Positions 28,239 to 62,403 are shown, counted from the first letter of the stretch. The stretch is DNA of 64,000 nt from Candidatus Woesearchaeota archaeon (GCA_016188115.1 JACPIK010000002.1:1395771-1459770); one strand, 5' to 3'. Translations and numbers: made by a program. The notes: a model not told the origin generated them from the letters alone.

Positions 28239-30047
28239 ATGCCTACAATTCATGTTCTTAGCGAAGACGTCATCAATAAAATTGCAGCAGGCGAAGTTAT
28301 TGAACGGCCTGCATCCGTAGTCAAAGAGTTAGTAGAAAACTCCATCGATGCTGGTGCAACCAAAATCACGGTTGACATTGAAAATGTAGGCAGAGATCTC
28401 ATCTGCATCACTGACAATGGGTCAGGTATGAATTCAGAAGATGCAAAACTCTCCATCATTCGACATGCAACGAGTAAGTTAAGTACAGCAGACGATCTTT
28501 TCAACATTCAATCGCTTGGATTTCGTGGAGAAGCTCTCGCTTCTATTGCTGCTGTAAGTACTCTTTCCATTTCGACAAAACAAAAGAAAAACATCGAAGG
28601 CTACATGATCACCATTCGTGGTGGTACGATTCAAAAAGAAGGTTCATGTGCTCACGAGCAAGGCACAACTATTGAAGTAAAATCACTTTTTTTCAATACA
28701 CCGGCGCGTCTCAAATTTCTCAAAACCGATGCCGTGGAATTGCGCCATATCATTGATGTAGTAACCCAATATGCATTGATTCATCCCGAAATCTCTTTCA
28801 CTCTTACTCACAATAACTCCTCTCTTATCGAGGCACCTAAAGTCGAAGATCTACGCCAACGCATTGCGTTTCTCTATGGTGTATCAATAGCCAAAGATTT
28901 AGTACCTATTCAAACCAAGGGTGATGGCTTTACTCTAAACGGTTTTTTAGGCACACCAATGCAATCACGTAATGACAAAGCGCAACAGGCTTTGTATGTT
29001 AACAAACGCTGGATTAAGAATACTGATTTACGTGATGCTGTGTATGAAGGATATCATTCGATGTTGTTTCATGGTAAACATCCGATCTTTGTGTTAGACA
29101 TCGAACTCGATGCTCAACGTATTGATGTTAATATCCATCCCCAGAAATCAGAGATCAAAATCGAACAGCGTGATGAGATTTGCAGTGCGATTACGCAAGC
29201 GGTTAAACACGCACTTTCAACGAATAATCTTATTCCTGATGTGACGCCACGGTTTGAAAATGTTAGTGGATTTTCTAAACCAAGCAAGTACTCATTTGAA
29301 AAAGCAACGCAACAAGTATTGCCGATTGAGAGAGAAGAAAGAACACGATCAATTCCACAAGTAAAAGAAAGTGCCGCAGTCTATCAACAAGACTCAGACT
29401 CTTCCTCTGCTCCTAGTTCCATTAGCAATTTTCCATTTACCTCATCTCCTGCTGAGTTTCATTCTTCTCTTCCTACAATGCGTTTGTTAGGTCAAATTCA
29501 CAAAACATTCTTTGTTGCCGAAAGTGATGGTGGAGCATATTTTATCGATCAACATGCGGCACACGAACGAGTACTCTACGAGGAATTGATGGGCGATCTC
29601 ACTTTGGGTCAAATTGCACCGCAAGTATTGCTTCAAGCAGCAGTAATCGATCTCGCCCCACGGGATGTTCCCATTGTGACACAGCATCTTTCTTTCTTAC
29701 ATCAGCTTGGTTTTACACTCGAATCATTTGGAACCAATAGTTTTTCACTCAAAACGCTTCCGAGTATCTTTGGTCGACAGCAACCTAAAGAACTCTTTGC
29801 TGACATGTTGGGCATTCTGCAAGAAGAAGGGAAAAACACGTTGGAGAAACTACGTGAAACTATTCTCACTCGTATGGCTTGTCGTGCTGCCGTGATGGCG
29901 GGTGATCCAGTCACCATCCCCGAAATGGAATTGATCCTACATCAACTTTCTCAAACCCAACATCCCTATACCTGTCCCCATGGCCGTCCAACGGTGATTA
30001 GAGTGAGCGCAGAAGAGCTCGAGAAGAAGTTTAAAAGGAAAGGGTAA
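28239..30047 (+). CDS. mutL: DNA mismatch repair protein MutL
   Basis: GHKL ATPase N-terminus 'KIAAGEVIERPASVVKELVENSIDAGAT', 'GFRGEALASI', and a C-terminal dimerisation/endonuclease region. Confidence 0.85.
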   Translation: MPTIHVLSEDVINKIAAGEVIERPASVVKELVENSIDAGATKITVDIENVGRDLICITDNGSGMNSEDAKLSIIRHATSKLSTADDLFNIQSLGFRGEALASIAAVSTLSISTKQKKNIEGYMITIRGGTIQKEGSCAHEQGTTIEVKSLFFNTPARLKFLKTDAVELRHIIDVVTQYALIHPEISFTLTHNNSSLIEAPKVEDLRQRIAFLYGVSIAKDLVPIQTKGDGFTLNGFLGTPMQSRNDKAQQALYVNKRWIKNTDLRDAVYEGYHSMLFHGKHPIFVLDIELDAQRIDVNIHPQKSEIKIEQRDEICSAITQAVKHALSTNNLIPDVTPRFENVSGFSKPSKYSFEKATQQVLPIEREERTRSIPQVKESAAVYQQDSDSSSAPSSISNFPFTSSPAEFHSSLPTMRLLGQIHKTFFVAESDGGAYFIDQHAAHERVLYEELMGDLTLGQIAPQVLLQAAVIDLAPRDVPIVTQHLSFLHQLGFTLESFGTNSFSLKTLPSIFGRQQPKELFADMLGILQEEGKNTLEKLRETILTRMACRAAVMAGDPVTIPEMELILHQLSQTQHPYTCPHGRPTVIRVSAEELEKKFKRKG

Positions 30048-52392: not shown

Positions 52393-52881
52393 TCAGCAGT
52401 TTTTGACTTCTTCAACTAACAATGCTTGTTCCGTGCAGATTTGTTCTTCATCAAAAGGAGTAATTTTTGGCACGATTTCAATTTGCTCTACTGCGCCATT
52501 TTCTTTAAGATTATACACAATTTTACCTCGATACGTTCCTGCTTTAGGCATCTTTGCTTTAACAAGATCTTCTGACTGAGAACCATCCTCACCTATAATA
52601 TTAACTATCAATCCCTCAACTTTAGAATTCTTGCCATTTTTAACGGTAAATTGTATTGTCTTGGTCTTTGTATCATAACAAACATGTTCTTTTCCTTTCA
52701 CCATGGCTAATGCTAATCCAACTTCAACTGGACATTCCGCTTCTTCTTCTACTTGAGCACTTCCTAAATTCATTACGACTACGCCTACAGCTACTGCAAA
52801 AGAAACTAGTAAAAACGTCGCAATGATCGGCGTAAGCGCTTTCTTATGCACTCTGCGGTGCTTTCCAATAGGTTTGACCAT
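52393..52881 (-). CDS. archaeal type IV pilin-like protein (class III signal peptide)
   Basis: 'KKALTPIIATFLLVSFAVAVGVVV' resembles the [KR][GA][ILV][ST]P..ATV.L prepilin peptidase motif. Followed by a beta-rich domain. Confidence 0.55.
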   Translation of the reverse strand: MVKPIGKHRRVHKKALTPIIATFLLVSFAVAVGVVVMNLGSAQVEEEAECPVEVGLALAMVKGKEHVCYDTKTKTIQFTVKNGKNSKVEGLIVNIIGEDGSQSEDLVKAKMPKAGTYRGKIVYNLKENGAVEQIEIVPKITPFDEEQICTEQALLVEEVKNC

Positions 52882-53302
52882 TATGTGTTATCTCTTTAAT
52901 TCTATTTGCTGGTATAAATATTTCTCCGCCCTGTCCAACAAACACAAGGAAATCTTTTTCAAGCTTCTTAAGATTATGTGCTGGTAGATTAACTATTTTA
53001 TTGCTAGCTTTATCCAAATAAGTGACAGAAAGTTCTTGTCTTGAAGGATGTCTGTGTATCCGATCGTAAATAATCTCTCCTTGTTTAATCTCATCAAGGG
53101 GAGTAACATCTTTAAAGATAAAACTTGAAAGAGTTAGCATTAATACTCCTACTCCTAAACTAACCAATGGGTTTGCTAAATACCCTATGTTTCCCACTCC
53201 ATCCCACAGTCCTGTCCAAAAAAAAACGACACCCATCACTCCGAAAAGGAACCAAAAGTACTTCTTCACTTTCTCAGTATGTAAGACCATCATGCCCTCC
53301 AA
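52844..53302 (-). CDS. membrane protein, paralog 1 (two TM + conserved C-terminal domain)
   Basis: Collinear with the next gene: 'FIPANRIKEITHNGQTYW' versus 'FIPIHRVKKIFQNDKIYW'. Confidence 0.45.
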   Translation of the reverse strand: MEGMMVLHTEKVKKYFWFLFGVMGVVFFWTGLWDGVGNIGYLANPLVSLGVGVLMLTLSSFIFKDVTPLDEIKQGEIIYDRIHRHPSRQELSVTYLDKASNKIVNLPAHNLKKLEKDFLVFVGQGGEIFIPANRIKEITHNGQTYWKAPQSA

Positions 53303-53736
53303 TAGATCTTATCATTTTGAAAGATTTTTTTAACACGATGAATAGGAATAAAAAATTCCTGTTTAGTAGGAAGCACTACAATTAAAGCGGTTTCGTCCAA
53401 CTGACTAATCGATACTGCCGGCACTTCTACTTCTTTTTTTTGAACTTTATCATAATATTTTATTTTAAATTGATTTTTTTGAGGATGAGCCATAATCCCT
53501 TCAAATCGTGTTACCAATGCTTTCTCCATACCACCAAGCGGGTCAAACTCTTTGAACACAAGACCGGAAAATGTTAACATTGTCAGTCCAATAAACAAGA
53601 ACACAAAGGGGTCACCAATCACATCACTTACTACAGGAATAACATAAATTCCTTCCCATACGCCTTTCCATGCTAAGATAATCGCTGCTGCTGAGTACAT
53701 AGACCAGAGAAAATGACGATCTTCTTCACGTAACAT
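53290..53736 (-). CDS. membrane protein, paralog 2
   Basis: Shares the architecture and C-terminal motif with paralog 1. Overlaps it by 13 bp. Confidence 0.45.
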   Translation of the reverse strand: MLREEDRHFLWSMYSAAAIILAWKGVWEGIYVIPVVSDVIGDPFVFLFIGLTMLTFSGLVFKEFDPLGGMEKALVTRFEGIMAHPQKNQFKIKYYDKVQKKEVEVPAVSISQLDETALIVVLPTKQEFFIPIHRVKKIFQNDKIYWRA

Positions 53737-53804: not shown

Positions 53805-54977
53805 TTATTTCATCACATACACTTTCAACGGTGGAAATCCATTAAATCCCACACTACTTACCTGCCAAGTATATGCACCTGTAGATAAAAAGTACAATTT
53901 GTCGCCTTCCTTGATATTCGCAGGAAGCTCATAGCGAAAATGTTCATATAAAATGTCGTGACTATCGCACGTTGGACCAGCCAGAATAAACTCTTTCATT
54001 TTACGAGAGTCTAATTTTGTCATGATGGGATACTTGATTGCTTCTCCCGCGCATTCATCCAACCCATTCCAGACTCCTGCATCAAGATACATCCATTCAC
54101 ATCCCATAGACTTTGATTTTGTAGCAATCAACATGACTTCGCTTACAATAACTCCCGCAGTACCAACCATGTAGCGACCAGGTTCAATAATAATGCGTGG
54201 TAGATTTTTTCCAAAATGAAATTTGAGTGATGCAGAAATTTTCTTTCCATAATATTCTAACGAAGGACTTTGCGAAAGATAGTGCGAGGGCAACCCTCCT
54301 CCTAAATTGAGCATTTCTAATTTAACGCCTTCTTTCTCAAGACGTTCAAAAAGATACTTACATTGCGCAATCGCTTGGTCCCATTGTTCCACATCGTGCT
54401 GCTGTGATCCAACATGAAATGATAACCCATAGGGAACCAAACCTTCCTTTTTGGCATGATGCGCAAGTTCTCGAATAATATCGGGATGTGCGCCAAATTT
54501 ACGTGACAGTGGCCAATCTGCCCCCTCACCATCAACCAACAACCGAAAAAAAACTCTTGAACCTGGGGCGTATTTAACCAGCTTAAGCATATCTGAATGA
54601 GAATCTGTTGCAAACATACGTATGCCCTTTTTGTAGAAATATTGTATATCTTCTATTTTTTTAATTGTGTTACCAAAGCTAATACGATCTGGTTTAACTT
54701 TAAAAGCAAGAAGTTGATCCAATTCATAACGTGAAGCGATATCAAAAGAACATTTTTGTTTTAACAGAGTTGAAACGACAGCCGGATGTGGGTTTGCTTT
54801 AAGCGCGTAAAAAATCTGAGCAAAAGGAAGCGCTTTTTGCAGTTGCAAGAAATTATGCTTTACTCGTTGTGGATCAAGTATCAAAAAAGGCGTTTTTTTC
54901 CCTTTGGCAAATCTTTCAAATTTCCCAAATCCTACTTCTTTTGCAATCTTCTTTGTTTTAAGATAGTACTCAGGCAT
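53805..54977 (-). CDS. PLP-dependent Orn/Lys/DAP/Arg decarboxylase (alanine-racemase-fold, group IV)
   Basis: PLP-binding 'FYALKANPHP', glycine-rich 'NLGGGLPSHY', and a C-terminal beta-domain. Confidence 0.7.
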   Translation of the reverse strand: MPEYYLKTKKIAKEVGFGKFERFAKGKKTPFLILDPQRVKHNFLQLQKALPFAQIFYALKANPHPAVVSTLLKQKCSFDIASRYELDQLLAFKVKPDRISFGNTIKKIEDIQYFYKKGIRMFATDSHSDMLKLVKYAPGSRVFFRLLVDGEGADWPLSRKFGAHPDIIRELAHHAKKEGLVPYGLSFHVGSQQHDVEQWDQAIAQCKYLFERLEKEGVKLEMLNLGGGLPSHYLSQSPSLEYYGKKISASLKFHFGKNLPRIIIEPGRYMVGTAGVIVSEVMLIATKSKSMGCEWMYLDAGVWNGLDECAGEAIKYPIMTKLDSRKMKEFILAGPTCDSHDILYEHFRYELPANIKEGDKLYFLSTGAYTWQVSSVGFNGFPPLKVYVMK

Positions 54978-55078
54978 AAAACACAGAACTATTTTGGTTT
55001 ATTTAAAATCTACTTTTTCAAGCATCAATATATCCGAAAGATGCTAACCATAAAGAAAAAGTTAAAACAAAGAAAAAT

Positions 55079-55651
55079 TTATTCGATACGCACTTTTAAC
55101 ACCACCACATCTTCTAATGGTCGATCTTGGCTGTTTGTCTTAACAGTAGCAATGGCGTTAACAACATCCATACCGCCAGTTACATTGCCAAACACTGGAT
55201 GCATACGATCTAGATAATTGTTATCTGCGATATTGATAAAGAATTGGCTGCCACCAGTATTGGGTCCAGCATTTGCCATAGCAATCGTTCCACGAACATT
55301 TTTCATTTCTTTATGAAACTCATCTTTGATATTGTATCCAGGTCCGCCCGTTCCCCATCGACCTTGTTTAGTGGGGTCCTTGGAAAGAGGATCTCCTCCT
55401 TGAATCATAAATCCATTCGGGGGTGCTTTAGCAGGACCAATCACTCTATGAAAACGAGTTCCATCATAAAATCCAGATTGGGCAAGCTTGATGAAGTTTG
55501 CTGTTGTAACGGGCATCTTATCTTCAGCCAGTTCTAGAGTTATTGTCCCAAGGGACGTTTCAAAAATAGCGTGTCGATTTTTCATAGTTTCACCACATGA
55601 TGTTAATAATAGAGTCAGTGCTACGATACTTAATATATAGATAGCTTTCAT
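55079..55651 (-). CDS. cyclophilin-type peptidyl-prolyl isomerase, probable lipoprotein
   Basis: 'LLLTSCGE' lipobox-like sequence. 'FHRVIGPAKAPPNGFMIQGGDP' and 'GTIAMANAGPNTGGSQFFI'. Confidence 0.8.
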   Translation of the reverse strand: MKAIYILSIVALTLLLTSCGETMKNRHAIFETSLGTITLELAEDKMPVTTANFIKLAQSGFYDGTRFHRVIGPAKAPPNGFMIQGGDPLSKDPTKQGRWGTGGPGYNIKDEFHKEMKNVRGTIAMANAGPNTGGSQFFINIADNNYLDRMHPVFGNVTGGMDVVNAIATVKTNSQDRPLEDVVVLKVRIE

Positions 55652-55767
55652 AAATTATTAATGAGAAGAAGTGCTTTATATTATTTTAGTAAATGCATTG
55701 ACATTTTGGATAAAATCCTGCATTTACTATATAGTAAACGAAATGGCGTTAAGACTTTTTTCGTTTA

Positions 55768-56295
55768 CTATTTGTGGGGGTTCTCTTGTGCCAATTCAAC
55801 TGAGGTCTTCAATCCCGCTCGTTTTCGGCAGAAGTTTATCCAGAGGTTATAGGTGGGGGCCATCCAAATAGAAAGCATCCCTGCTGATTCAATAGAGTTC
55901 TCAACTTTTTCACGATGAACTTCACCAGTGGTGATATAGTCGGCAATGGCGACAATTCCTGCATAAAACGGAGTTTGAAACGTATTAAACGCAATGAGAT
56001 CTGCAGCACGTTCTCGTAGGAAACGATACGAAGCGTCCTTCACAGCTCCAAATTGATGATACCAATGATCTTGCCATTTGCCATAATAACGTCCTGTCGC
56101 GTAATTGACTCCAAAGCTTTGTGAGCGTGAAGCCAGCATTCCTGTGATTGATAAACCAGAGTATAAGTCTAGGGGAACGCCTATTGCTAATGAATAGCTA
56201 ATACTTGCAAGCCGATCGATCTTTTTGTATTTGCGTTCGGTTTGGGTGACGAGAGAATCAATGGACATTTTACAAGAATTATTTTCCCAGTTCAC
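55768..56295 (-). CDS. hypothetical protein (last gene of a six-gene minus-strand block)
   Basis: 175 aa. Aromatic-rich, no motif. Confidence 0.35.
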   Translation of the reverse strand: MNWENNSCKMSIDSLVTQTERKYKKIDRLASISYSLAIGVPLDLYSGLSITGMLASRSQSFGVNYATGRYYGKWQDHWYHQFGAVKDASYRFLRERAADLIAFNTFQTPFYAGIVAIADYITTGEVHREKVENSIESAGMLSIWMAPTYNLWINFCRKRAGLKTSVELAQENPHK

Positions 56296-56325
56296 AAAAC
56301 CTAAAATGTAATGAGGGTAGGATGT

Positions 56326-56823
56326 TCATTTCTTCCCTCCCAATGCCTCATACACCCAACGAAAAGTCTCTTCAGTAAATTGTCCTCTTTTTGAGTTGAT
56401 GCCGATAGTTTTTCGGTTAATCATCTCAAATTCAATCATGTCATATTCTCTCAGATCATATTCTATCTCTTCGAGGGGGATAAGACCTTCTTGAGTCTGA
56501 CGTTTATACCCTACACTAGCATAGAATAGTCGTTCAAGCTGACTTTGATTAGGGCCGTAAGTATATTTTAAGATTAAACGATCTGGATCCTGGCCAAGAT
56601 CGGGGATTACATCTCGCTCTGCAAAATCACATCGTAATTCATAGCGTTTTATGGAAGGTTCGTGTAGAAACAACCTTCTCCCATTGCGAAACGTCCCAAT
56701 GCTAAATCTACCGTCAACTTCTGTGATGAAAAATCTGCCAATATGTGTTCGGTAAATATCCTCAGTAAGTGCTTCGACAACACGATCATGAATTCTTACA
56801 ATGGTATGTTCTGGGTATTCCAT
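56326..56823 (-). CDS. hypothetical protein (translationally coupled ORFan 1)
   Basis: 165 aa. Start overlaps the upstream stop (ATGA). Confidence 0.4.
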   Translation of the reverse strand: MEYPEHTIVRIHDRVVEALTEDIYRTHIGRFFITEVDGRFSIGTFRNGRRLFLHEPSIKRYELRCDFAERDVIPDLGQDPDRLILKYTYGPNQSQLERLFYASVGYKRQTQEGLIPLEEIEYDLREYDMIEFEMINRKTIGINSKRGQFTEETFRWVYEALGGKK

Positions 56824-57353
56824 TATGGTCTGCCTCCTAAAATATCTTCAAAAAATAGTCTTAGAATACTATCAGCCTGAACAACAGAAAGATTAGATTG
56901 AGCACTGTATTTTCCATCCTGCGTAACTCCAAAAATAAGTCTATGTTTTCTTCTTGAATGTAGGGATAAAAAGATGCTCTGTTTTCCATCACCTGCTAGT
57001 GTTCCATCTATACTATTGTTTTGGTATTCCTGTGACAGTTCAAGAACATACGATCCATCACCACCAAATCTGCATGCAAGATCCACAAGCGATCTAGAAG
57101 GATTAGAATCTTCCATCTCAGGTACAAACTGCCTATGGAAATATTGGGCAGAAAAATGTCCAAATTCAACTATATTCCATTCAATTCCATTTACTTTTGA
57201 GAAGAAACGTCCTACATTATCAATTCTGGAATCAAGAACTTCACGTTGTGGTGCTTGAGGGTCATAATACTGTTGGTTGAGTTGCCTATATTCACTAACT
57301 TTACTGTTTGCATATTGTACAACGTCTTGCAGTGTAGGTTCTATGATTGTCAT
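56823..57353 (-). CDS. hypothetical protein (translationally coupled ORFan 2)
   Basis: 176 aa. Shares start/stop overlaps on both sides. Confidence 0.4.
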   Translation of the reverse strand: MTIIEPTLQDVVQYANSKVSEYRQLNQQYYDPQAPQREVLDSRIDNVGRFFSKVNGIEWNIVEFGHFSAQYFHRQFVPEMEDSNPSRSLVDLACRFGGDGSYVLELSQEYQNNSIDGTLAGDGKQSIFLSLHSRRKHRLIFGVTQDGKYSAQSNLSVVQADSILRLFFEDILGGRP

Positions 57354-57835
57354 TATCTCTCCTCCAATCTCAAAAAATCATCTTCTAAAACATCGAAGAA
57401 TCGAGTTTTTCCAGTTAGTTTCGCGTAAACGCTTTCCATAAAGTGAGAGTAGATTTTCTGTACACGATCTCGGGTCGCATCACCATCATGTCTACTTAGA
57501 AAAGTCTTCCAAATGTCTTTTCCTCTTGAAACACGAAGAGATTCAAATCTTCCCGTAAGGCCATTTTCCTGAGTTTGAAAACCCCATTGGTCTTCTTTGA
57601 CGGGATCTAGAGATATTTCTAATCTTGAATTTCGCATTGGTCTCTCGACACCTGCATTATTGATATCACAAAAATAAGCTCTTAATTTTCTACCATCATT
57701 AAATAAAGTTTTAACCGTGTAATGTCCTGGAAAGCCTTCTGTCTGAGAACCATCTAAAGTAAATTCATTGGTGCCATATTCTACTAAGTATCGAGCAATT
57801 GCTTGTGATGTTTCAGATAATTCTCGCATCTTCAT
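57353..57835 (-). CDS. hypothetical protein (translationally coupled ORFan 3)
   Basis: 160 aa. Confidence 0.4.
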   Translation of the reverse strand: MKMRELSETSQAIARYLVEYGTNEFTLDGSQTEGFPGHYTVKTLFNDGRKLRAYFCDINNAGVERPMRNSRLEISLDPVKEDQWGFQTQENGLTGRFESLRVSRGKDIWKTFLSRHDGDATRDRVQKIYSHFMESVYAKLTGKTRFFDVLEDDFLRLEER

Positions 57836-57838
57836 CCC

Positions 57839-58261
57839 CTACTGTTTCTGCTGGTAACTCTGTCTTACCTTAGAAAAAGATCCAAACAATGCCTCTTGTG
57901 CCATCGTGGCTGCATCGTCTACTCCAAACGTAGGGGTCTCATAGTGCGAGTTTACCAACTTATTCCTTTCAACTAAGCGTTGATAATGTCTGAGTCTAAC
58001 TTCGAGATTTTCTTTGTATGCAACAACGTGCTCAGGCGTTAATTCTCGTCGAATTGTTCTTCTCGATCCTGTCTCCTGCTTCTTAAAATCAACAACTCCA
58101 TTACTCTCTACTCCAAAAGTATACAATTGTGTGAGTGGTAAGTGCATTGTAGCAACTACTTCGTCATTTTTACCTTCTAAATCAGCGCATCCAAGGCGTT
58201 CAAGGATTGTTTGTGTAAATTGTGCATCATACATAATATTCTCCAAAACACCTTTCACCAC
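57839..58261 (-). CDS. hypothetical protein (ORFan 4, first small gene after the binding protein)
   Basis: 140 aa. Confidence 0.4.
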   Translation of the reverse strand: MVKGVLENIMYDAQFTQTILERLGCADLEGKNDEVVATMHLPLTQLYTFGVESNGVVDFKKQETGSRRTIRRELTPEHVVAYKENLEVRLRHYQRLVERNKLVNSHYETPTFGVDDAATMAQEALFGSFSKVRQSYQQKQ

Positions 58262-58298
58262 CAGATATTAAAAAGAAAAAAACTAAAAAAATCAAAAC

Positions 58299-59459
58299 TT
58301 ACCGATACGCCACAGCCTGATTATTCTCAACTTGCTTTACTTCGAATACAGCATATTTCAAATCTCCTTGACTATCAAATTCAATTGTCGGAGAACTGAC
58401 ACCTTTGTACGAAGTTTTATACAATTCTTGAACAATCTTTGCTTTGTCTGTGCCCGCTTTTTGCATAGCAAGTGCCATCACTTTGACAGAATCATAGGCA
58501 AATGGTGCAACGAATCCTACTTCCAAGTTTTCAAATCCTTTGAGGGTGTGAATTTTTTGCGTAAGTGTTTCAGGTACGTCAGATTTTGCAAGCATGTAGA
58601 GTGCACCGTTAGTTTGGCCACTTTTAATGAATTCGTCGCCACTCCAAGCATCGCCTCCAAGCAGAGGGAGTTGTAATCCGGCTTCGTGGGTTTGTTTAAC
58701 AAAACTAACTCCTTGGGCAGGATGAAGTGGAGCAAAGATTGCAAGTGCACCGCTATTTTTCACTTTAGCTAGATCTGTGCGAAAGTCAATACTATCTTGA
58801 GTTACACCACCTTCATAGACAATCTCGCCTCCAAGACTTTCAAATTGTTGTTTGAACACTTTTTGAATTCCTTGGCCCCATTCATTTTGGGCATAAACAA
58901 TGGCAACTTTCTTAGTTCCAAGAGTGTTGTACATGAAGTTTGCTGCTTCCTTACCTTGGAAGCTATCTGATGGATAGACGCGAAACACACGATCGCCAAG
59001 CGCAGTTAATCCTGGAGCAGATGCAGTAAACATCATGACGGGTGTTCCTGCTTGCACAGCAACTGGAAGAGCAGGTCCAGCAGATGCAGAACAAACAGGT
59101 CCTGCGATGACATCAACATTATTAACATTGACAAGTTTTTGCATAGCAGCAACGCCAGCCGCACTACAAGAATCATCTTCTGCAATCAAGACCAATTTAC
59201 GGCCATTAATACCGCCAGCGGCGTTAATTTCATTCACAGCAAGAGTTGCAGCGGCGAGTGCATTTTGTCCAAATGAAGCAGCTTCACCAGTCAATGGGCC
59301 AATCCAGCCTACTTTAATATCGCCTTGGGCAGCAGCTTGTGTCGTTGGTTGGCTTTTCACAACATTTCCTGTCGGCTGTTCTGAAGAGCAACCAGCAATA
59401 AGAAACATCGCTATCACGAGTACACTAAATATGGATAATAATTTTTTCATAGTTGTCAC
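58299..59459 (-). CDS. LivJ/LivK-family (type I) periplasmic-binding-protein-like lipoprotein; no permease genes nearby
   Basis: Lipobox 'MFLIAGCSS'. 'IKVGWIGPLTGEAASFGQN...NAAGGINGRKLVL' matches Peripla_BP_6. Confidence 0.75.
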   Translation of the reverse strand: MTTMKKLLSIFSVLVIAMFLIAGCSSEQPTGNVVKSQPTTQAAAQGDIKVGWIGPLTGEAASFGQNALAAATLAVNEINAAGGINGRKLVLIAEDDSCSAAGVAAMQKLVNVNNVDVIAGPVCSASAGPALPVAVQAGTPVMMFTASAPGLTALGDRVFRVYPSDSFQGKEAANFMYNTLGTKKVAIVYAQNEWGQGIQKVFKQQFESLGGEIVYEGGVTQDSIDFRTDLAKVKNSGALAIFAPLHPAQGVSFVKQTHEAGLQLPLLGGDAWSGDEFIKSGQTNGALYMLAKSDVPETLTQKIHTLKGFENLEVGFVAPFAYDSVKVMALAMQKAGTDKAKIVQELYKTSYKGVSSPTIEFDSQGDLKYAVFEVKQVENNQAVAYR

Positions 59460-59583
59460 CTGTATTAATTACGTAGTGACTAATAATTGTAAAAAATATA
59501 GTTATGCTTATATTTTTGATATAAATATATATTATTAATATTTTGAAGTAAATTTTAAAAAGAAACACCAATATAATCAATAC

Positions 59584-60516
59584 ATGAAACGTAAAGTCGT
59601 AAAACTCGGACCGTCTACACTAGTAATCTCTCTGCCTAGTGAGTGGATTAAAAAGAGTCACATTTCTCCGGGAATCGAGCTTGATGTTGAAGAAGTACAT
59701 CACAACCTATTGATCAAGCCACCCGTCAAACAACATCCTTCCATAACAATAACTCTACATGACGAGGCTGACAAGAAAGCAATTTATTCTCAATTAAGTC
59801 ATCTCTATCGGGTTGGTTTTGATAAGATTACAATTAATTTTACGGAAAGTTCCTCTCTCAAACGCATCCAACATATTGTTTCGCAAAACCTTCTCGGTTT
59901 TGAAATTACCAAGAAAACTGTAACCTCTTGTATTATTGAAAGTATTACTGAACCAACTGACGAAAAATTTCAGGTTTTACTTCGTCGTGTTTTTTTACAA
60001 ATAAAAGAAACACAAGAATTAGTAAGAGAAGATTTTACAGCACACAAAGAGCTCAAAGCAGATGAGCTCGAAGATTTACGCGCCTCGCTTGATCGCCATA
60101 TTTTCTTTTGTCGTCGTCTGATCTCCAAAGGAATTGATATGGGCGAAACACCTCATCTGGTTTGGGAATTGTTAACTTTCTTGATGCATATTCAGCATGC
60201 GTATTATTACATGTATGGGTATTACAAAGAACATAAACAGAAAGTGCATAAAGAGACGTTACACTTGCTGAGTCATCTTGAGCTCTATTTCGATTTTTTC
60301 TACAAAGCCTATTTTGAGAAGAAAGAAGAACATCTTGTAGAACGTCGAAAAGAAAGAATACAAATTCAGCATCTAATCTTTAAACAGTTAGAAAGTGCCA
60401 ACAATCCTAATAAAGTGATTCTGGGCTATCTTCAACAAATCTGTCGTTTAATGCAGGTAGGTATCAGTCCGGTTCATTCTATCTTGGTGGATGAGAAGAG
60501 GAAAAATATAATTTAA
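59584..60516 (+). CDS. phosphate-uptake-regulator-like protein (AbrB/SpoVT N-terminal domain + PhoU-like domain)
   Basis: 'KRKVVKLGPSTLVISLPSEWIKK' is AbrB-like. The C-terminal half is PhoU-like helical repeats. Confidence 0.55.
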   Translation: MKRKVVKLGPSTLVISLPSEWIKKSHISPGIELDVEEVHHNLLIKPPVKQHPSITITLHDEADKKAIYSQLSHLYRVGFDKITINFTESSSLKRIQHIVSQNLLGFEITKKTVTSCIIESITEPTDEKFQVLLRRVFLQIKETQELVREDFTAHKELKADELEDLRASLDRHIFFCRRLISKGIDMGETPHLVWELLTFLMHIQHAYYYMYGYYKEHKQKVHKETLHLLSHLELYFDFFYKAYFEKKEEHLVERRKERIQIQHLIFKQLESANNPNKVILGYLQQICRLMQVGISPVHSILVDEKRKNII

Positions 60517-60517
60517 T

Positions 60518-62215
60518 CTATTTAATATGATATTTTTCCAACAGCTTCAAACTATCATTAAGTCCAGAGAAAGGATTAGCTGGTGGGGCGCCTGTGGGCA
60601 ATCCTTCACAAAGCTTCATCTGGTCTTGAAATGATCCTTTCTCAAGCACATCATATACATTTGGGACTGAACTATGAAGAAGTTGCACAAGAGGCCAACT
60701 AGCATTGTGCATCCTTGTTTGATTTTCTTTTACTCTCCAATCGCCTTCTTCCATTCCCTTTTTCATATTATCTTCACGTTCTGCATTTGCAATTCGATAA
60801 TTCCATACTAAATCTTGACAATGTTTTTGAAAGTCGAACCCGCGTAATTTCCATTCTTGTACTGTCCTCTTCTCTTGTTCATACTTTATGGACATCATCC
60901 AATTATCCATTGGTGGATCGTCTGCAGAGTATGCAAAATTATATGTAAGCATATCTGCATCTATAATATCCCCATTTATCTTGTTCCAGGAAGTTGTCCC
61001 GTTTTTTCTAACAATCTTTGAGACAAGATCAGGGTTGTAAAAAGCTGCATACATCGTTTTCTTATCATTAAATAAATACGAGAGTCCTTCAATTTTTGCT
61101 AATTGTGTGTGCTCATGAATATCGCCGCTTGTTCTTTCACCACCAGCATACATGCGAGCTATACGCATCTTTTGTTCGTAATCAATTTTCTTCTCTTGGT
61201 CTTCCGTTTTTATAATATATGTGCTGGCGCTTAATCCTATGGCGGTAGTTACAGCAACCGTCGTACCCCAACGTATAACTCTTGATAAAGGTCTTGATAC
61301 TTCATACTTTCGTACCGCTTTCTCGACTTCTTTAACAAGTTCTTCACCATCGTTAAGACGGGAGTCTTCATGAACAAGACATCTATGTAACAACTTTCTA
61401 AATGCCTTCGGGATGGGTGTATTACTATTTTCGATTTTATCATACACTAATCCATTCCAAACTCCTGGACTCTGATAGAGAAGATTCACTAACTCAGTTG
61501 CATTTGGTTTAAATTCTCCCTGGGGATCAGTCAATTCTTTTTCTAGTACATACTTGCCTGTAAACATTTTGTACAGCACTGATCCAAAAGACCAGACATC
61601 CATCTTAGTAGTAAGTTTTACTCCATCATCATTAAATCGTTCAGGCGCGCGAGTTAATTTATTGCCACCGCCAATACGCGTTGCGTACCCTGCTGTGGCA
61701 GTTCCAAAATCAAGAAGTTTAACATCTCCTTCACTAGTTAATCCTAAGTTTCCAGGATGATAATCTCCATGTTCTAATCCAACAACTTTATGCAAGTTTC
61801 GCAAGCCCCGTGCTCCACTTCGAGCAACCCGTATAACTTCGTCAAGAGAGAATGGCTTGTCTTCTTGCATACGCTCATAAAGAGTACGATCAACAAGTTC
61901 CATCATAAGATAATTAGTGCCATCAAGACTGCGTCCCGGAAAGAAAGAAACAAGACCCTCAAGTGTTTGTCCAAAACCACCTAATGCTTCCCGCCTAAAT
62001 GCGTCCTCCTGTGAAAGGCCGCGTTGTTCGAGAATCTCTTTAGCTCGTTCCTGCGGGTCTAAAACTTTCACTGCAACCGGTCGACCGGTACTGTCGTTAG
62101 TATATCGATAGACAATCCCGTTTGCTCCTCGATTAATCGGTCCAACGTGAGTATAACCCAAAATTTGAGGTGGTTGGAAGCCTAATATAACTATTATTGG
62201 GTCCAGCGAGCTCAT
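60518..62215 (-). CDS. eukaryotic-type Ser/Thr protein kinase with a C-terminal TM and an unknown domain
   Basis: Gly-loop 'RGANGIVYRY', 'VAVKVL', catalytic 'HGDYHPGNL', 'DFGTA'. TM 'TTVAVTTAIGLSASTYII'. C-terminal ~230 aa unassigned. Confidence 0.75.
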   Translation of the reverse strand: MSSLDPIIVILGFQPPQILGYTHVGPINRGANGIVYRYTNDSTGRPVAVKVLDPQERAKEILEQRGLSQEDAFRREALGGFGQTLEGLVSFFPGRSLDGTNYLMMELVDRTLYERMQEDKPFSLDEVIRVARSGARGLRNLHKVVGLEHGDYHPGNLGLTSEGDVKLLDFGTATAGYATRIGGGNKLTRAPERFNDDGVKLTTKMDVWSFGSVLYKMFTGKYVLEKELTDPQGEFKPNATELVNLLYQSPGVWNGLVYDKIENSNTPIPKAFRKLLHRCLVHEDSRLNDGEELVKEVEKAVRKYEVSRPLSRVIRWGTTVAVTTAIGLSASTYIIKTEDQEKKIDYEQKMRIARMYAGGERTSGDIHEHTQLAKIEGLSYLFNDKKTMYAAFYNPDLVSKIVRKNGTTSWNKINGDIIDADMLTYNFAYSADDPPMDNWMMSIKYEQEKRTVQEWKLRGFDFQKHCQDLVWNYRIANAEREDNMKKGMEEGDWRVKENQTRMHNASWPLVQLLHSSVPNVYDVLEKGSFQDQMKLCEGLPTGAPPANPFSGLNDSLKLLEKYHIK

Positions 62216-62403
62216 TTCCCATCACCTTCCTCTTCCAACATCTTTCTCAATGCATACTCCAACGCATGAGACGTGCTGCGGAATCGACCAGTCAATATTC
62301 CTTCGTCTACTTTACGCAACGTCGCTTCATCAACAGTAATGCTTATTTTTGCTTTCATGTTTAGTGGTGATTTGGTTTTACATAGCGTCTTTCGGGTTAT
62401 CAA
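62212..62403 (-). CDS. ribbon-helix-helix (CopG/Arc-like) small DNA-binding protein
   Basis: 'KAKISITVDEATLRKVDE' is an RHH beta-strand. Its stop overlaps the kinase start. Confidence 0.45.
   Translation of the reverse strand: MITRKTLCKTKSPLNMKAKISITVDEATLRKVDEGILTGRFRSTSHALEYALRKMLEEEGDGK

What the first reader, a model, noticed from the sequence alone, without database searches (positions are those of the whole stretch)
55768..59459. Six-gene minus-strand block: orphan LivJ-like binding lipoprotein followed by five ORFans (four translationally coupled) with no recognisable domains
The genes at 57839-58261, 57353-57835, 56823-57353 and 56326-56823 share or abut start and stop codons, a sign of tight co-translation and stoichiometric complex formation. 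Gene 55768-56295 follows. The block is led by a type I periplasmic-binding-protein-like lipoprotein that has no ABC permease or ATPase partner in the window. None of the five small proteins (140-176 aa) shows a motif I can place, and they are not related to one another. A ligand-binding surface receptor plus a set of novel cytoplasmic proteins is a plausible previously undescribed sensory, defence or metabolic module.
Basis: inference. Interest (0 to 1): 0.65.

Follow-up and report, generated by a model that had tools for sequence, protein, structure and literature searches.

The report
Amino-acid transport operon with unknown add-ons
This is one operon of a Woesearchaeota (DPANN) archaeon that pairs an amino-acid-binding surface lipoprotein and an AlaE-type membrane transporter with four small cytoplasmic proteins of unknown function, and two of those four protein families (B and D) also sit inside complete branched-chain amino-acid ABC transporter operons of related archaea.

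Summary
The six ORFs exist and look coding. The last "ORFan" is not one: it is an AlaE-family (L-alanine exporter, PF06610) membrane protein.

The other four, here called A to D, have no Pfam, NCBIfam, PHROG, PADLOC or PDB sequence match. A, B and D still belong to conserved, unnamed families: about 30, 30 and 10 clusters, from metagenomes and DPANN MAGs. C is a singleton.

Context is the main result.
- Every D-family gene recovered lies next to a LivJ-like binding-protein gene.
- In more distant relatives, D or B sits between LivJ and a full LivHMGF ABC transporter.
- Opposite LivJ lies an orthologous AbrB/PhoU-like regulator, usually with a membrane Ser/Thr kinase nearby.
- In the window's lineage LivHMGF is replaced by AlaE.

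Close relatives carry LivJ-A-D-AlaE or LivJ-A-D-X-Y-AlaE. So A and D are the core and B-C is a variable insert, which argues against an obligate four-protein complex.

AlphaFold models are confident. B has a Mam33/p32-like fold. A has no structural relative in PDB or BFVD.

Best reading: a remodelled Liv-type transport operon with lineage-specific, fast-evolving accessory proteins that probably bind other proteins. A conflict or immunity cassette is not excluded. Moderately interesting; function unproven.

The parts
58299..59450 (-). LivJ-like type I substrate-binding lipoprotein (383 aa from ATG 59450; the mechanical ORF starts at GTG 59459)
   Evidence: Pfam Peripla_BP_6 E 3.2e-51 and ANF_receptor E 1.8e-33. 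NCBIfam branched-chain amino acid SBP subfamily E 1e-45, below the equivalog cut-off. It has an N-terminal hydrophobic segment and LIAGC. It is 67-75% identical to the orthologue in close relatives.
58265..58298 (-). T-rich tract between the LivJ stop and gene A, followed by a conserved GGTGGT...GGAG...ATG
   Evidence: Read. The tract and the following motif are conserved in three related contigs. Inference: an oligo-T attenuator of the archaeal type that lowers read-through from the highly expressed binding-protein gene. Not tested.
57839..58234 (-). Gene A, 131 aa, cytoplasmic, unnamed family (about 30 clusters at 50% identity)
57353..57835 (-). Gene B, 160 aa, unnamed family (about 30 clusters), Mam33/p32-like fold
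56823..57353 (-). Gene C, 176 aa, singleton
   Evidence: It finds only itself among 1.84 billion representatives. No Pfam, NCBIfam, PADLOC, PHROG or PDB match. Codon-usage score is 0.196 bits/codon in frame and negative in the other frames. It is absent from close relatives.
56326..56823 (-). Gene D, 165 aa, unnamed family (about 10 clusters), always found next to a LivJ-like gene
   Evidence: NCBI HYV86_07850 [Candidatus Woesearchaeota archaeon] on a contig of 1,471,151 bp. It is only 38% identical to the counterpart in the nzgw60-type relative, whereas flanking genes are 67-83% identical.
55768..56268 (-). AlaE-family small membrane transporter (166 aa from ATG 56268)
   Evidence: Pfam PF06610 AlaE E 1.5e-16, 61.2 bits (cut-off 25), covering profile positions 10-137 of 141. 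The same family is called on the Logan contigs. It is 69% identical in relatives. In L007 its ATG lies 2 nt after the preceding stop.
55736..55766 (-). Hairpin (aaacgaaa ... tttcgttt) directly after the AlaE stop; probable end of the transcription unit
   Evidence: Read from the sequence. Its function is inferred.
59584..60516 (+). Divergently transcribed AbrB/SpoVT-domain regulator (310 aa) with a PhoU-like C-terminal part; a conserved neighbour of the LivJ operons
   Evidence: Pfam MazE_antitoxin/AbrB-type E 4.5e-5. Orthologues lie opposite LivJ in L010, L005, L020 and L022 (E 1e-59 to 1e-19). The L020 orthologue also hits PhoU at E 1.8e-4, 22.3 bits, just under the 23.5-bit cut-off.
60518..62403 (-). 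Ser/Thr protein kinase (565 aa) preceded by a small ribbon-helix-helix-like gene (62212-62403); a recurrent neighbour of the module
   Evidence: Pkinase on the identical Logan contig. The same trio of small gene, kinase and AbrB-like regulator flanks Liv loci in ERZ27297570 and L010. Whether it is functionally linked is inference.

Best explanation
The block is a single transcription unit and a lineage-specific derivative of the Liv-type amino-acid uptake operon of DPANN archaea.

What it encodes:
- a surface-anchored LivJ-like binding lipoprotein;
- an AlaE-family small membrane transporter, sitting where relatives carry LivH-LivM-LivG-LivF;
- between them, cytoplasmic accessory proteins.

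A and D are the conserved core of the accessory set. The B-C pair is a variable insert. The four do not form an obligate complex.

Proposed mechanism (inferred, not shown): the accessory proteins are non-enzymatic, protein-binding regulators or adaptors. They would tune the transporter, or relay its state to the adjacent AbrB/PhoU-like transcription regulator and perhaps the neighbouring membrane Ser/Thr kinase. This would be analogous in logic to PhoU with the Pst transporter.
- B supplies a Mam33/p32-type interaction platform.
- A is a small alpha/beta protein. In other Woesearchaeota it is co-transcribed with transcription factors, so it probably partners a DNA-binding regulator.

Shown: gene order, coupling, conservation, family membership of LivJ and AlaE, the recurrent Liv context, and the folds of A and B.
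Inferred: co-transcription, cytoplasmic location, and the regulatory role.
For: Operon structure:
- Gaps of 3, -1 and -1 nt, then about 55 nt before AlaE.
- In relative L007 every junction from A to AlaE is 8 nt or less.
- The LivJ-A spacer is conserved.

Context of D:
- All recovered loci place D beside LivJ. The window lineage and two close relatives have LivJ-A-(..)-D-(..)-AlaE.
- L005/L006 have AbrB | D-LivJ-...-LivHMGF.
- L020 has AbrB-PhoU | LivJ-D fusion-three unknown genes-LivH-LivM-LivG-LivF. In L016-L019 and L022 the D fusion likewise follows LivJ, as far as those contigs reach.

Context of B:
- L010 (Ca. Nanoarchaeia) has two tandem B paralogues, with overlapping or abutting stop and start codons, between two LivJ genes and LivH.
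- AbrB-like regulators opposite LivJ are orthologous across these loci.

Context of A elsewhere:
- TGT-HTH_10-A in two MAGs.
- In another contig A overlaps a sigma70-like gene by 4 nt.

Protein properties:
- A to D have no predicted TM segment or signal peptide.
- AF2 models of A and B are confident, with pLDDT 94.
- The top hits for B all fall in the Mam33/p32 fold class, whose members bind many protein partners (PMC7065911).
- Codon usage supports coding for all four.
Against: - No experiment or known homologue ties any of A to D to transport or regulation.
- B is not confined to Liv loci. One homologue, with a Tat signal, lies in a polysaccharide locus. Roughly 4 of 33 B representatives carry export or membrane-anchor signals. 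That is awkward for a purely cytoplasmic transporter regulator.
- A occurs away from Liv loci.
- Gene content turns over between close relatives. A (55-59%) and especially D (38%) diverge faster than the flanking genes (67-83%). This is unusual for core regulatory subunits.
- D and C were not modelled.
- Whether the genome has LivHMGF elsewhere is unknown.
Confidence: 0.45

Rival explanations
1. The stretch between LivJ and the transporter genes is a tolerated insertion hotspot. It collects fast-evolving, conflict-related small genes, such as orphan immunity or antitoxin-like proteins or other selfish cassettes. A to D would then be cargo of that kind and unrelated to transport.
For: - Content differs among close relatives with identical flanks: A-B-C-D, A-D, or A-D-X195-Y223.
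- C, X and Y are singletons or near-singletons.
- A and D diverge faster than their flanks.
- Bona fide toxin-antitoxin pairs sit at the same kind of position in relatives. VapBC lies between a small ORF and LivH in L005. MNT/HepT lies just after AlaE in L007 and ERZ27297570.
- B-family members occur both with and without export signals, as immunity families often do (established knowledge of polymorphic-toxin immunity proteins).
Against: - No PADLOC hit for the window proteins or for 64 family members and 10 neighbours.
- No toxin-like partner in the block.
- No relatives on IMG/VR contigs.
- No flanking repeats and no GC shift.
- The same family, D, recurs next to LivJ in at least five distinct lineages, including one where it lies upstream of LivJ. 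Random insertion does not predict this.
Confidence: 0.25
2. A ligand-sensing signalling module, which is the first reader's 'sensory' option. The orphan LivJ-like lipoprotein would act as an extracellular sensor that feeds the membrane Ser/Thr kinase and the AbrB/PhoU-like regulator. A to D would be kinase substrates or phospho-dependent adaptors.
For: - The trio of small ribbon-helix-helix-like gene, membrane kinase and AbrB-like regulator recurs next to LivJ loci.
- The window has no Liv permease.
Against: - In most related loci LivJ is followed by a complete ABC importer, so its ancestral role is transport.
- The polo-box similarity is weaker than the Mam33 similarity and is generic for a beta-sheet packed on a helix.
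- Nothing links the kinase functionally to the operon beyond synteny.
Confidence: 0.15
3. A to D are small enzymes that process the transported amino acid or peptide: a metabolic module.
For: - Co-transcription with transport genes.
- A has invariant polar residues H69, N91 and Y98, and a nearly invariant S126-Y127 pair.
Against: - No similarity to any enzyme family by sequence or structure.
- The B fold class is non-catalytic.
- Gene content is not conserved among close relatives, as a pathway would require.
Confidence: 0.07

Closest known systems
LIV-I / LivJ-LivHMGF branched-chain amino-acid ABC importer operons
   Same: The first gene is a Peripla_BP_6/LivJ-type binding protein. In related DPANN loci the same small-protein families lie within operons that encode LivH, LivM and two ABC ATPases.
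   Different: The window's operon has no permease or ATPase, and an AlaE-family gene sits in their place. Classical Liv operons have no equivalent of the 2-5 small cytoplasmic proteins inserted after the binding-protein gene.
AlaE (YgaW) L-alanine exporter of Escherichia coli, Pfam PF06610
   Same: The last gene matches the family model over nearly its full length and above the curated cut-off. E. coli AlaE is a small inner-membrane amino-acid exporter that acts as a safety valve (PMC4554458, PMC6801825; titles and abstracts only).
   Different: This one is archaeal and is co-transcribed with a binding lipoprotein and unknown proteins. Its substrate and direction of transport have not been tested.
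Mam33 / p32 (gC1qBP) fold class, including Leptospira FcpB and Vibrio VC0508
   Different: Sequence identity is 5-11% and there is no profile match. B has six strands rather than seven or eight and is not markedly acidic (pI 6.3). This shows fold resemblance only, not family membership.
PhoU with the PstSCAB phosphate ABC transporter (a regulator that couples transporter state to gene regulation)
   Same: An AbrB-domain protein with a PhoU-like region is the invariant divergent neighbour of these Liv-type operons. This is the model for the proposed logic.
   Different: The PhoU match is marginal: 22.3 bits against a 23.5-bit cut-off, and only in one orthologue. No interaction has been tested. 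A to D have no similarity to PhoU.
Orphan immunity-gene arrays and toxin-antitoxin cassettes
   Same: Small, unrelated, tightly packed, fast-evolving genes whose content varies between close relatives. True TA pairs occur at equivalent positions in relatives.
   Different: No toxin partner, no match to defence or TA families, and a persistent association of family D with LivJ.

Membership tests
Type I periplasmic binding protein, LivJ-like (Pfam Peripla_BP_6, PF13458) | Full-length match to the family model above the curated cut-off | tested here: met
   175.5 bits against a cut-off of 31.7, covering residues 48-375 on profile positions 2-339 of 343.
Type I periplasmic binding protein, LivJ-like (Pfam Peripla_BP_6, PF13458) | Export and anchoring signal (signal peptide with lipobox cysteine) | tested here: met
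   A hydrophobic segment at residues 1-19 followed by LIAGC. Pattern only; lipidation has not been shown.
Type I periplasmic binding protein, LivJ-like (Pfam Peripla_BP_6, PF13458) | Cognate LivH/LivM permease and ABC ATPases encoded nearby | tested here: not met
   No LivH/LivM homologue in the 64-kb window. They are present in related loci L005, L010 and L020. The rest of the 1.47-Mb contig was not available.
Type I periplasmic binding protein, LivJ-like (Pfam Peripla_BP_6, PF13458) | Branched-chain amino-acid specificity | not testable with these tools
   The NCBIfam high-affinity BCAA SBP model scores 156 bits against an equivalog-type cut-off of 477. The ligand is therefore unknown.
AlaE L-alanine exporter (Pfam PF06610) | Match to the family model above the curated cut-off over most of its length | tested here: met
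   61.2 bits against a cut-off of 25, E 1.5e-16, profile positions 10-137 of 141. The same call appears on public contigs.
AlaE L-alanine exporter (Pfam PF06610) | Small polytopic membrane protein | tested here: inconclusive
   A simple Kyte-Doolittle scan finds no 19-residue segment above 1.4-1.6. Moderately hydrophobic stretches are visible in the sequence. No dedicated topology predictor was available.
AlaE L-alanine exporter (Pfam PF06610) | Alanine export activity | not testable with these tools
   Needs a transport assay.
Mam33 / p32 family (for protein B) | Sequence or profile similarity to the family | tested here: not met
   No Pfam hit for B or for the other 32 family members. No PDB sequence hit below E 0.3.
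Mam33 / p32 family (for protein B) | Fold: N-terminal helix, antiparallel beta-sheet, C-terminal helices | tested here: met
Mam33 / p32 family (for protein B) | Strongly acidic protein forming a doughnut-shaped trimer | tested here: not met
   pI 6.3, with 26 acidic and 25 basic residues. The oligomeric state is not testable here.
Known anti-phage defence systems (PADLOC-DB 2.0) | Any component matching a defence-system model | tested here: not met
   No hit for the six window proteins at E of 1 or less. For the 64 A- and B-family members, one stray hit at E 0.006. None for D-family members and neighbouring small proteins.
Toxin-antitoxin modules | A recognisable toxin or antitoxin domain in the coupled genes | tested here: not met
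   No Pfam or NCBIfam match in A to D. The only TA-type domains nearby are the AbrB fold of the 310-aa regulator, and MNT/HepT and VapBC pairs in relatives.

The most novel reading that the evidence does not exclude
In this Woesearchaeota lineage the LivJ-type binding lipoprotein works with the AlaE-type membrane protein as a new kind of binding-protein-dependent secondary transporter. A and D would be its dedicated cytoplasmic gating or regulatory subunits. More generally, families D and B would be previously unrecognised subunits of DPANN Liv-type transporters. The LivJ-A-D-AlaE core is conserved in three related lineages with tightly coupled genes, and no permease is nearby. Nothing excludes a LivHMGF set elsewhere in the genome.
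Probability: 0.12. Interest if true: 0.7.

Novelty: new variant of a known kind. Interest (0 to 1): 0.42.

Why it matters
DPANN archaea depend on scavenged amino acids, yet how they control uptake is unknown.

This analysis defines three unnamed protein families (A, B, D). Families B and D recur inside Liv-type transport operons beside an AbrB/PhoU-like regulator, usually with a membrane kinase nearby; A joins them in the window's own lineage. Confident structure models exist for A and B, and A has no known structural relative. That gives concrete, clonable candidates for transporter-associated regulation in a group of organisms with very few characterised proteins.

It also documents an operon variant in which an AlaE-type protein has taken the place of the ABC permease and ATPase genes. 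If the small proteins turn out to be conflict-related cargo instead, the locus is a clean example of a hypervariable hotspot inside a conserved operon.

Tried and rejected
1. Searching the word-indexed protein database with A+B+C+D concatenated returned nothing, not even self hits. The exhaustive representative search with the same concatenation worked.
2. Paralogy among A to D was rejected. BLAST and hhalign found no relation. The L010 203/199-aa pair is also unrelated to D.
3. Spurious ORFs were rejected on three grounds: codon usage, homologues and AF2 confidence.
4. Mobile-element or viral origin found no support.
   - GC content shows no shift.
   - There is no tRNA in the window.
   - Only short, low-identity repeats are present.
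   - There are no PHROG matches.
   - There are no IMG/VR relatives.
   - BFVD has no structural match for A.
5. No RNA element was found: no Rfam hit at E of 0.1 or less in 54500-60600. Bacterial-type promoter and terminator scans were uninformative for an archaeon.
6. A joint A+D model to test their interaction failed. D was therefore never modelled.
7. The afdb50 fold library was unavailable.
8. Scans of GTDB genomes with the B family found nothing. Alignments A1 to A5 were too divergent to derive search patterns.
9. The first literature search found nothing on these families or on Liv operons of DPANN.


Full report
**1. The observation**

The window is archaeal. It encodes aCPSF1/FttA, XPD, the archaeal CCA-adding enzyme and class III signal-peptide pilin-like proteins. 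Protein D is identical to NCBI HYV86_07850 of a Candidatus Woesearchaeota archaeon MAG, on a contig of 1,471,151 bp. Two Logan contigs are 100% identical in DNA to the window.

The six minus-strand ORFs exist. Junctions were read from the sequence:

| Junction | Spacing |
|---|---|
| LivJ stop to A start (ATG 58234) | 64 nt, T-rich |
| A to B | 3-nt gap |
| B to C | TAATG, 1-nt overlap |
| C to D | TAATG, 1-nt overlap |
| D to AlaE (ATG 56268) | about 55 nt |

A hairpin follows the AlaE stop. The A start at ATG 58234 has GGAG 8 nt upstream and matches the NCBI call of 131 aa.

Tight junctions are frequent in this genome: 11 of 43 same-strand pairs have a gap of 3 nt or less. The run of three argues for an operon. 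It is not a statistical oddity, and it is not evidence for a stoichiometric complex.

In-frame codon-usage scores of A, B, C and D are 0.19-0.23 bits/codon, inside the range of the window's long genes (0.15-0.40). All five alternative frames score negative. GC content is flat across the region.

**2. What the proteins are**

- LivJ-like. It gives a full-length Peripla_BP_6 match (E 3e-51) and has a lipobox-like LIAGC. It scores far below the equivalog cut-off of the branched-chain-specific NCBIfam model, so its ligand is open.
- The sixth gene is not an ORFan. It matches Pfam AlaE (L-alanine exporter) at 61 bits against a cut-off of 25, over profile positions 10-137 of 141.
- A to D have no match in Pfam, NCBIfam, PADLOC or PHROGs at E of 1 or less, apart from noise.

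An exhaustive HMMER search of 1.84 billion representatives with the four proteins concatenated gave 71 hits: about 30 clusters for A, about 30 for B, 6 for D and only the self hit for C. A profile search added further D members. Several of these are about 296 aa long and carry an extra C-terminal domain.

Source names, where given, are Woesearchaeota, Nanoarchaeota or Candidatus Nanoarchaeia MAGs. Family profiles find no PDB sequence relative, and no Pfam family recurs across members. The four are unrelated to one another by BLAST and hhalign.

**3. Structures**

B, modelled from 33 sequences, has pLDDT 94.2 and pTM 0.89. It has an N-terminal helix, a six-stranded antiparallel sheet and two C-terminal helices.

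So B has a Mam33/p32-like fold. It fails the family's sequence, acidity and strand-number features, so this is a resemblance and not membership.

**4. Genomic context, the decisive evidence**

| Locus | Arrangement |
|---|---|
| Window (Woesearchaeota HYV86) | AbrB-like(-) \| LivJ-A-B-C-D-AlaE |
| ERZ27297570, close relative with the same kinase, AbrB-like regulator and LivJ upstream | LivJ-A-D-AlaE; D and AlaE overlap |
| L007/L008/L021, Woesearchaeota nzgw60 | LivJ-A-D-X195-Y223-AlaE, with junctions of 3, 8, 1 and 2 nt |
| L005/L006, groundwater, 199-kb contig | AbrB-like(-) \| D-LivJ-small ORFs-VapBC-LivH-LivM-LivG-LivF |
| L020 (full locus); L016-L019 and L022 (UBA10192) partial | AbrB/PhoU-like(-) \| LivJ-D fusion (299 aa)-three unknown genes-LivH-LivM-LivG-LivF; in L016-L019 the D fusion follows LivJ, and L022 shows AbrB-like(-) \| LivJ-D fusion |
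| L010, Ca. Nanoarchaeia GCA_028713045.1 | kinase-AbrB-like(-) \| LivJ-LivJ-203 aa-B1-B2-109 aa-LivH-199 aa-LivM-LivG-LivF-small RHH-like gene-169 aa-kinase-AbrB-like(-); overlapping or abutting junctions through the small-gene run |

The relative with the L007 arrangement shares the window's downstream genes: cyclophilin, Orn/DAP decarboxylase and the genes that follow. X195 and Y223 have no detectable similarity to B or C.

The AbrB-like regulators are orthologous across these loci (E 1e-59 to 1e-19). One also hits PhoU just under the cut-off.

The recurrent architecture is therefore an AbrB/PhoU-like regulator, then LivJ, then 2-5 small unknown cytoplasmic proteins, then a transporter. The window lineage replaces LivHMGF by AlaE, and the 64-kb window contains no LivH or LivM.

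Not every member of these families is Liv-linked:
- A homologues lie after an HTH_10 regulator in two MAGs.
- One A homologue overlaps a sigma70-like gene.
- One B homologue, with a Tat signal, lies in a polysaccharide locus.

**5. Evolutionary behaviour**

Identity between the window and the close-relative contigs L003, L007 and L021:

| Protein | Amino-acid identity |
|---|---|
| LivJ | 67-75% |
| AlaE | 69% |
| cyclophilin | 70% |
| Orn/DAP decarboxylase | 83% |
| three downstream proteins | 67-78% |
| A | 55-59% |
| D | 38% |

Together with the B-C versus X-Y turnover, this shows that the interior of the operon evolves much faster than its ends.

**6. Interpretation**

I put the best explanation at about 0.45: a remodelled Liv-type amino-acid transport operon. 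A and D are its core accessory proteins and B-C is a variable insert. The accessory proteins are probably protein-binding regulators or adaptors that act on the transporter or on the neighbouring AbrB/PhoU-like regulator and kinase.

- Shown: the operon structure, the LivJ and AlaE memberships, the recurrent Liv context, and the folds of A and B.
- Inferred: the mechanism.

The main rival (about 0.25) is that the post-LivJ position is an insertion hotspot that accumulates fast-evolving conflict or immunity-type cassettes.
- In favour: gene turnover, rapid divergence, true TA pairs at equivalent positions in relatives, and export-signal variants of B.
- Against: the persistent D-LivJ linkage across at least five lineages, the absence of any toxin or defence match, and the absence of viral or integration signatures.

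A sensory-kinase reading (about 0.15) and an enzymatic reading (about 0.07) are weaker.

**7. Novelty and score**

LivJ and AlaE are known kinds. The operon layout, meaning AlaE in place of LivHMGF plus embedded small proteins, and the three unnamed families appear undescribed. The first literature search found nothing relevant on DPANN Liv operons, and these families carry no name to search by. I classify it as a new variant of a known kind, with interest 0.42.

It is a solid lead for DPANN transport regulation and includes a possible new fold (A). No surprising mechanism is demonstrated.

The most novel reading not excluded is a binding-protein-dependent AlaE-type transporter with A and D as dedicated subunits (probability about 0.12).

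Noticed in passing
L009 7070-8125 (Woesearchaeota MAG contig Ga0376277_0005495); also the contig carrying P0063: Bacterial-type sigma-70 region 2/region 4 (ECF-like) proteins are encoded in DPANN archaeal MAGs. In one case two of them directly follow, and the first overlaps, an A-family gene. Sigma factors are not expected in archaea. This could be horizontal transfer, contamination or a repurposed HTH protein.
   Followed up: partly
window 52844-53302 and 53290-53736 (minus strand), then 52393-52881: Two tandem paralogues (152 and 148 aa, about 28-33% identical, weak MJ1316 Pfam hit) have overlapping stop and start codons. A pilin-like protein with a class III signal peptide follows. The trio is conserved in the nzgw60 relative.
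   Followed up: partly
window 59584-62403; L010 2162-4891 and 13342-16636; ERZ27297570 contig: A recurring trio lies next to Liv-type loci: a small ribbon-helix-helix-like gene, a membrane Ser/Thr kinase and a convergent AbrB/PhoU-like regulator. It occurs twice in L010, once on each side of the operon.
   Followed up: partly
L007 3724-4330, the ERZ27297570 contig and the SRR14366772 contig; L005 12643-13272: Toxin-antitoxin pairs (MNT/HepT just after AlaE; VapB/PIN between a small ORF and LivH) are present in relatives. They are absent from the corresponding place in the window, which indicates local gain and loss of small cassettes.
   Followed up: no
window 58265-58298: A T-rich tract of about 25-30 nt directly after the LivJ stop is conserved in three related contigs, as is the following GGTGGT...GGAG motif. 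It may be an archaeal oligo-T attenuator that sets the ratio of binding protein to downstream products.
   Followed up: partly
P0036, P0082-P0084, P0086, P0087 (D-family proteins of about 290-320 aa); L020 7992-8891: In one Woesearchaeota/Nanoarchaeota clade the D domain is fused to a second, about 140-residue C-terminal domain ending in ...ALDAIARRVGHNWR. That domain also has no Pfam match.
   Followed up: no
window 28239-30047: A complete MutL homologue (HATPase_c_3, DNA_mis_repair and MutL_C domains) is encoded in this small DPANN genome.
   Followed up: no
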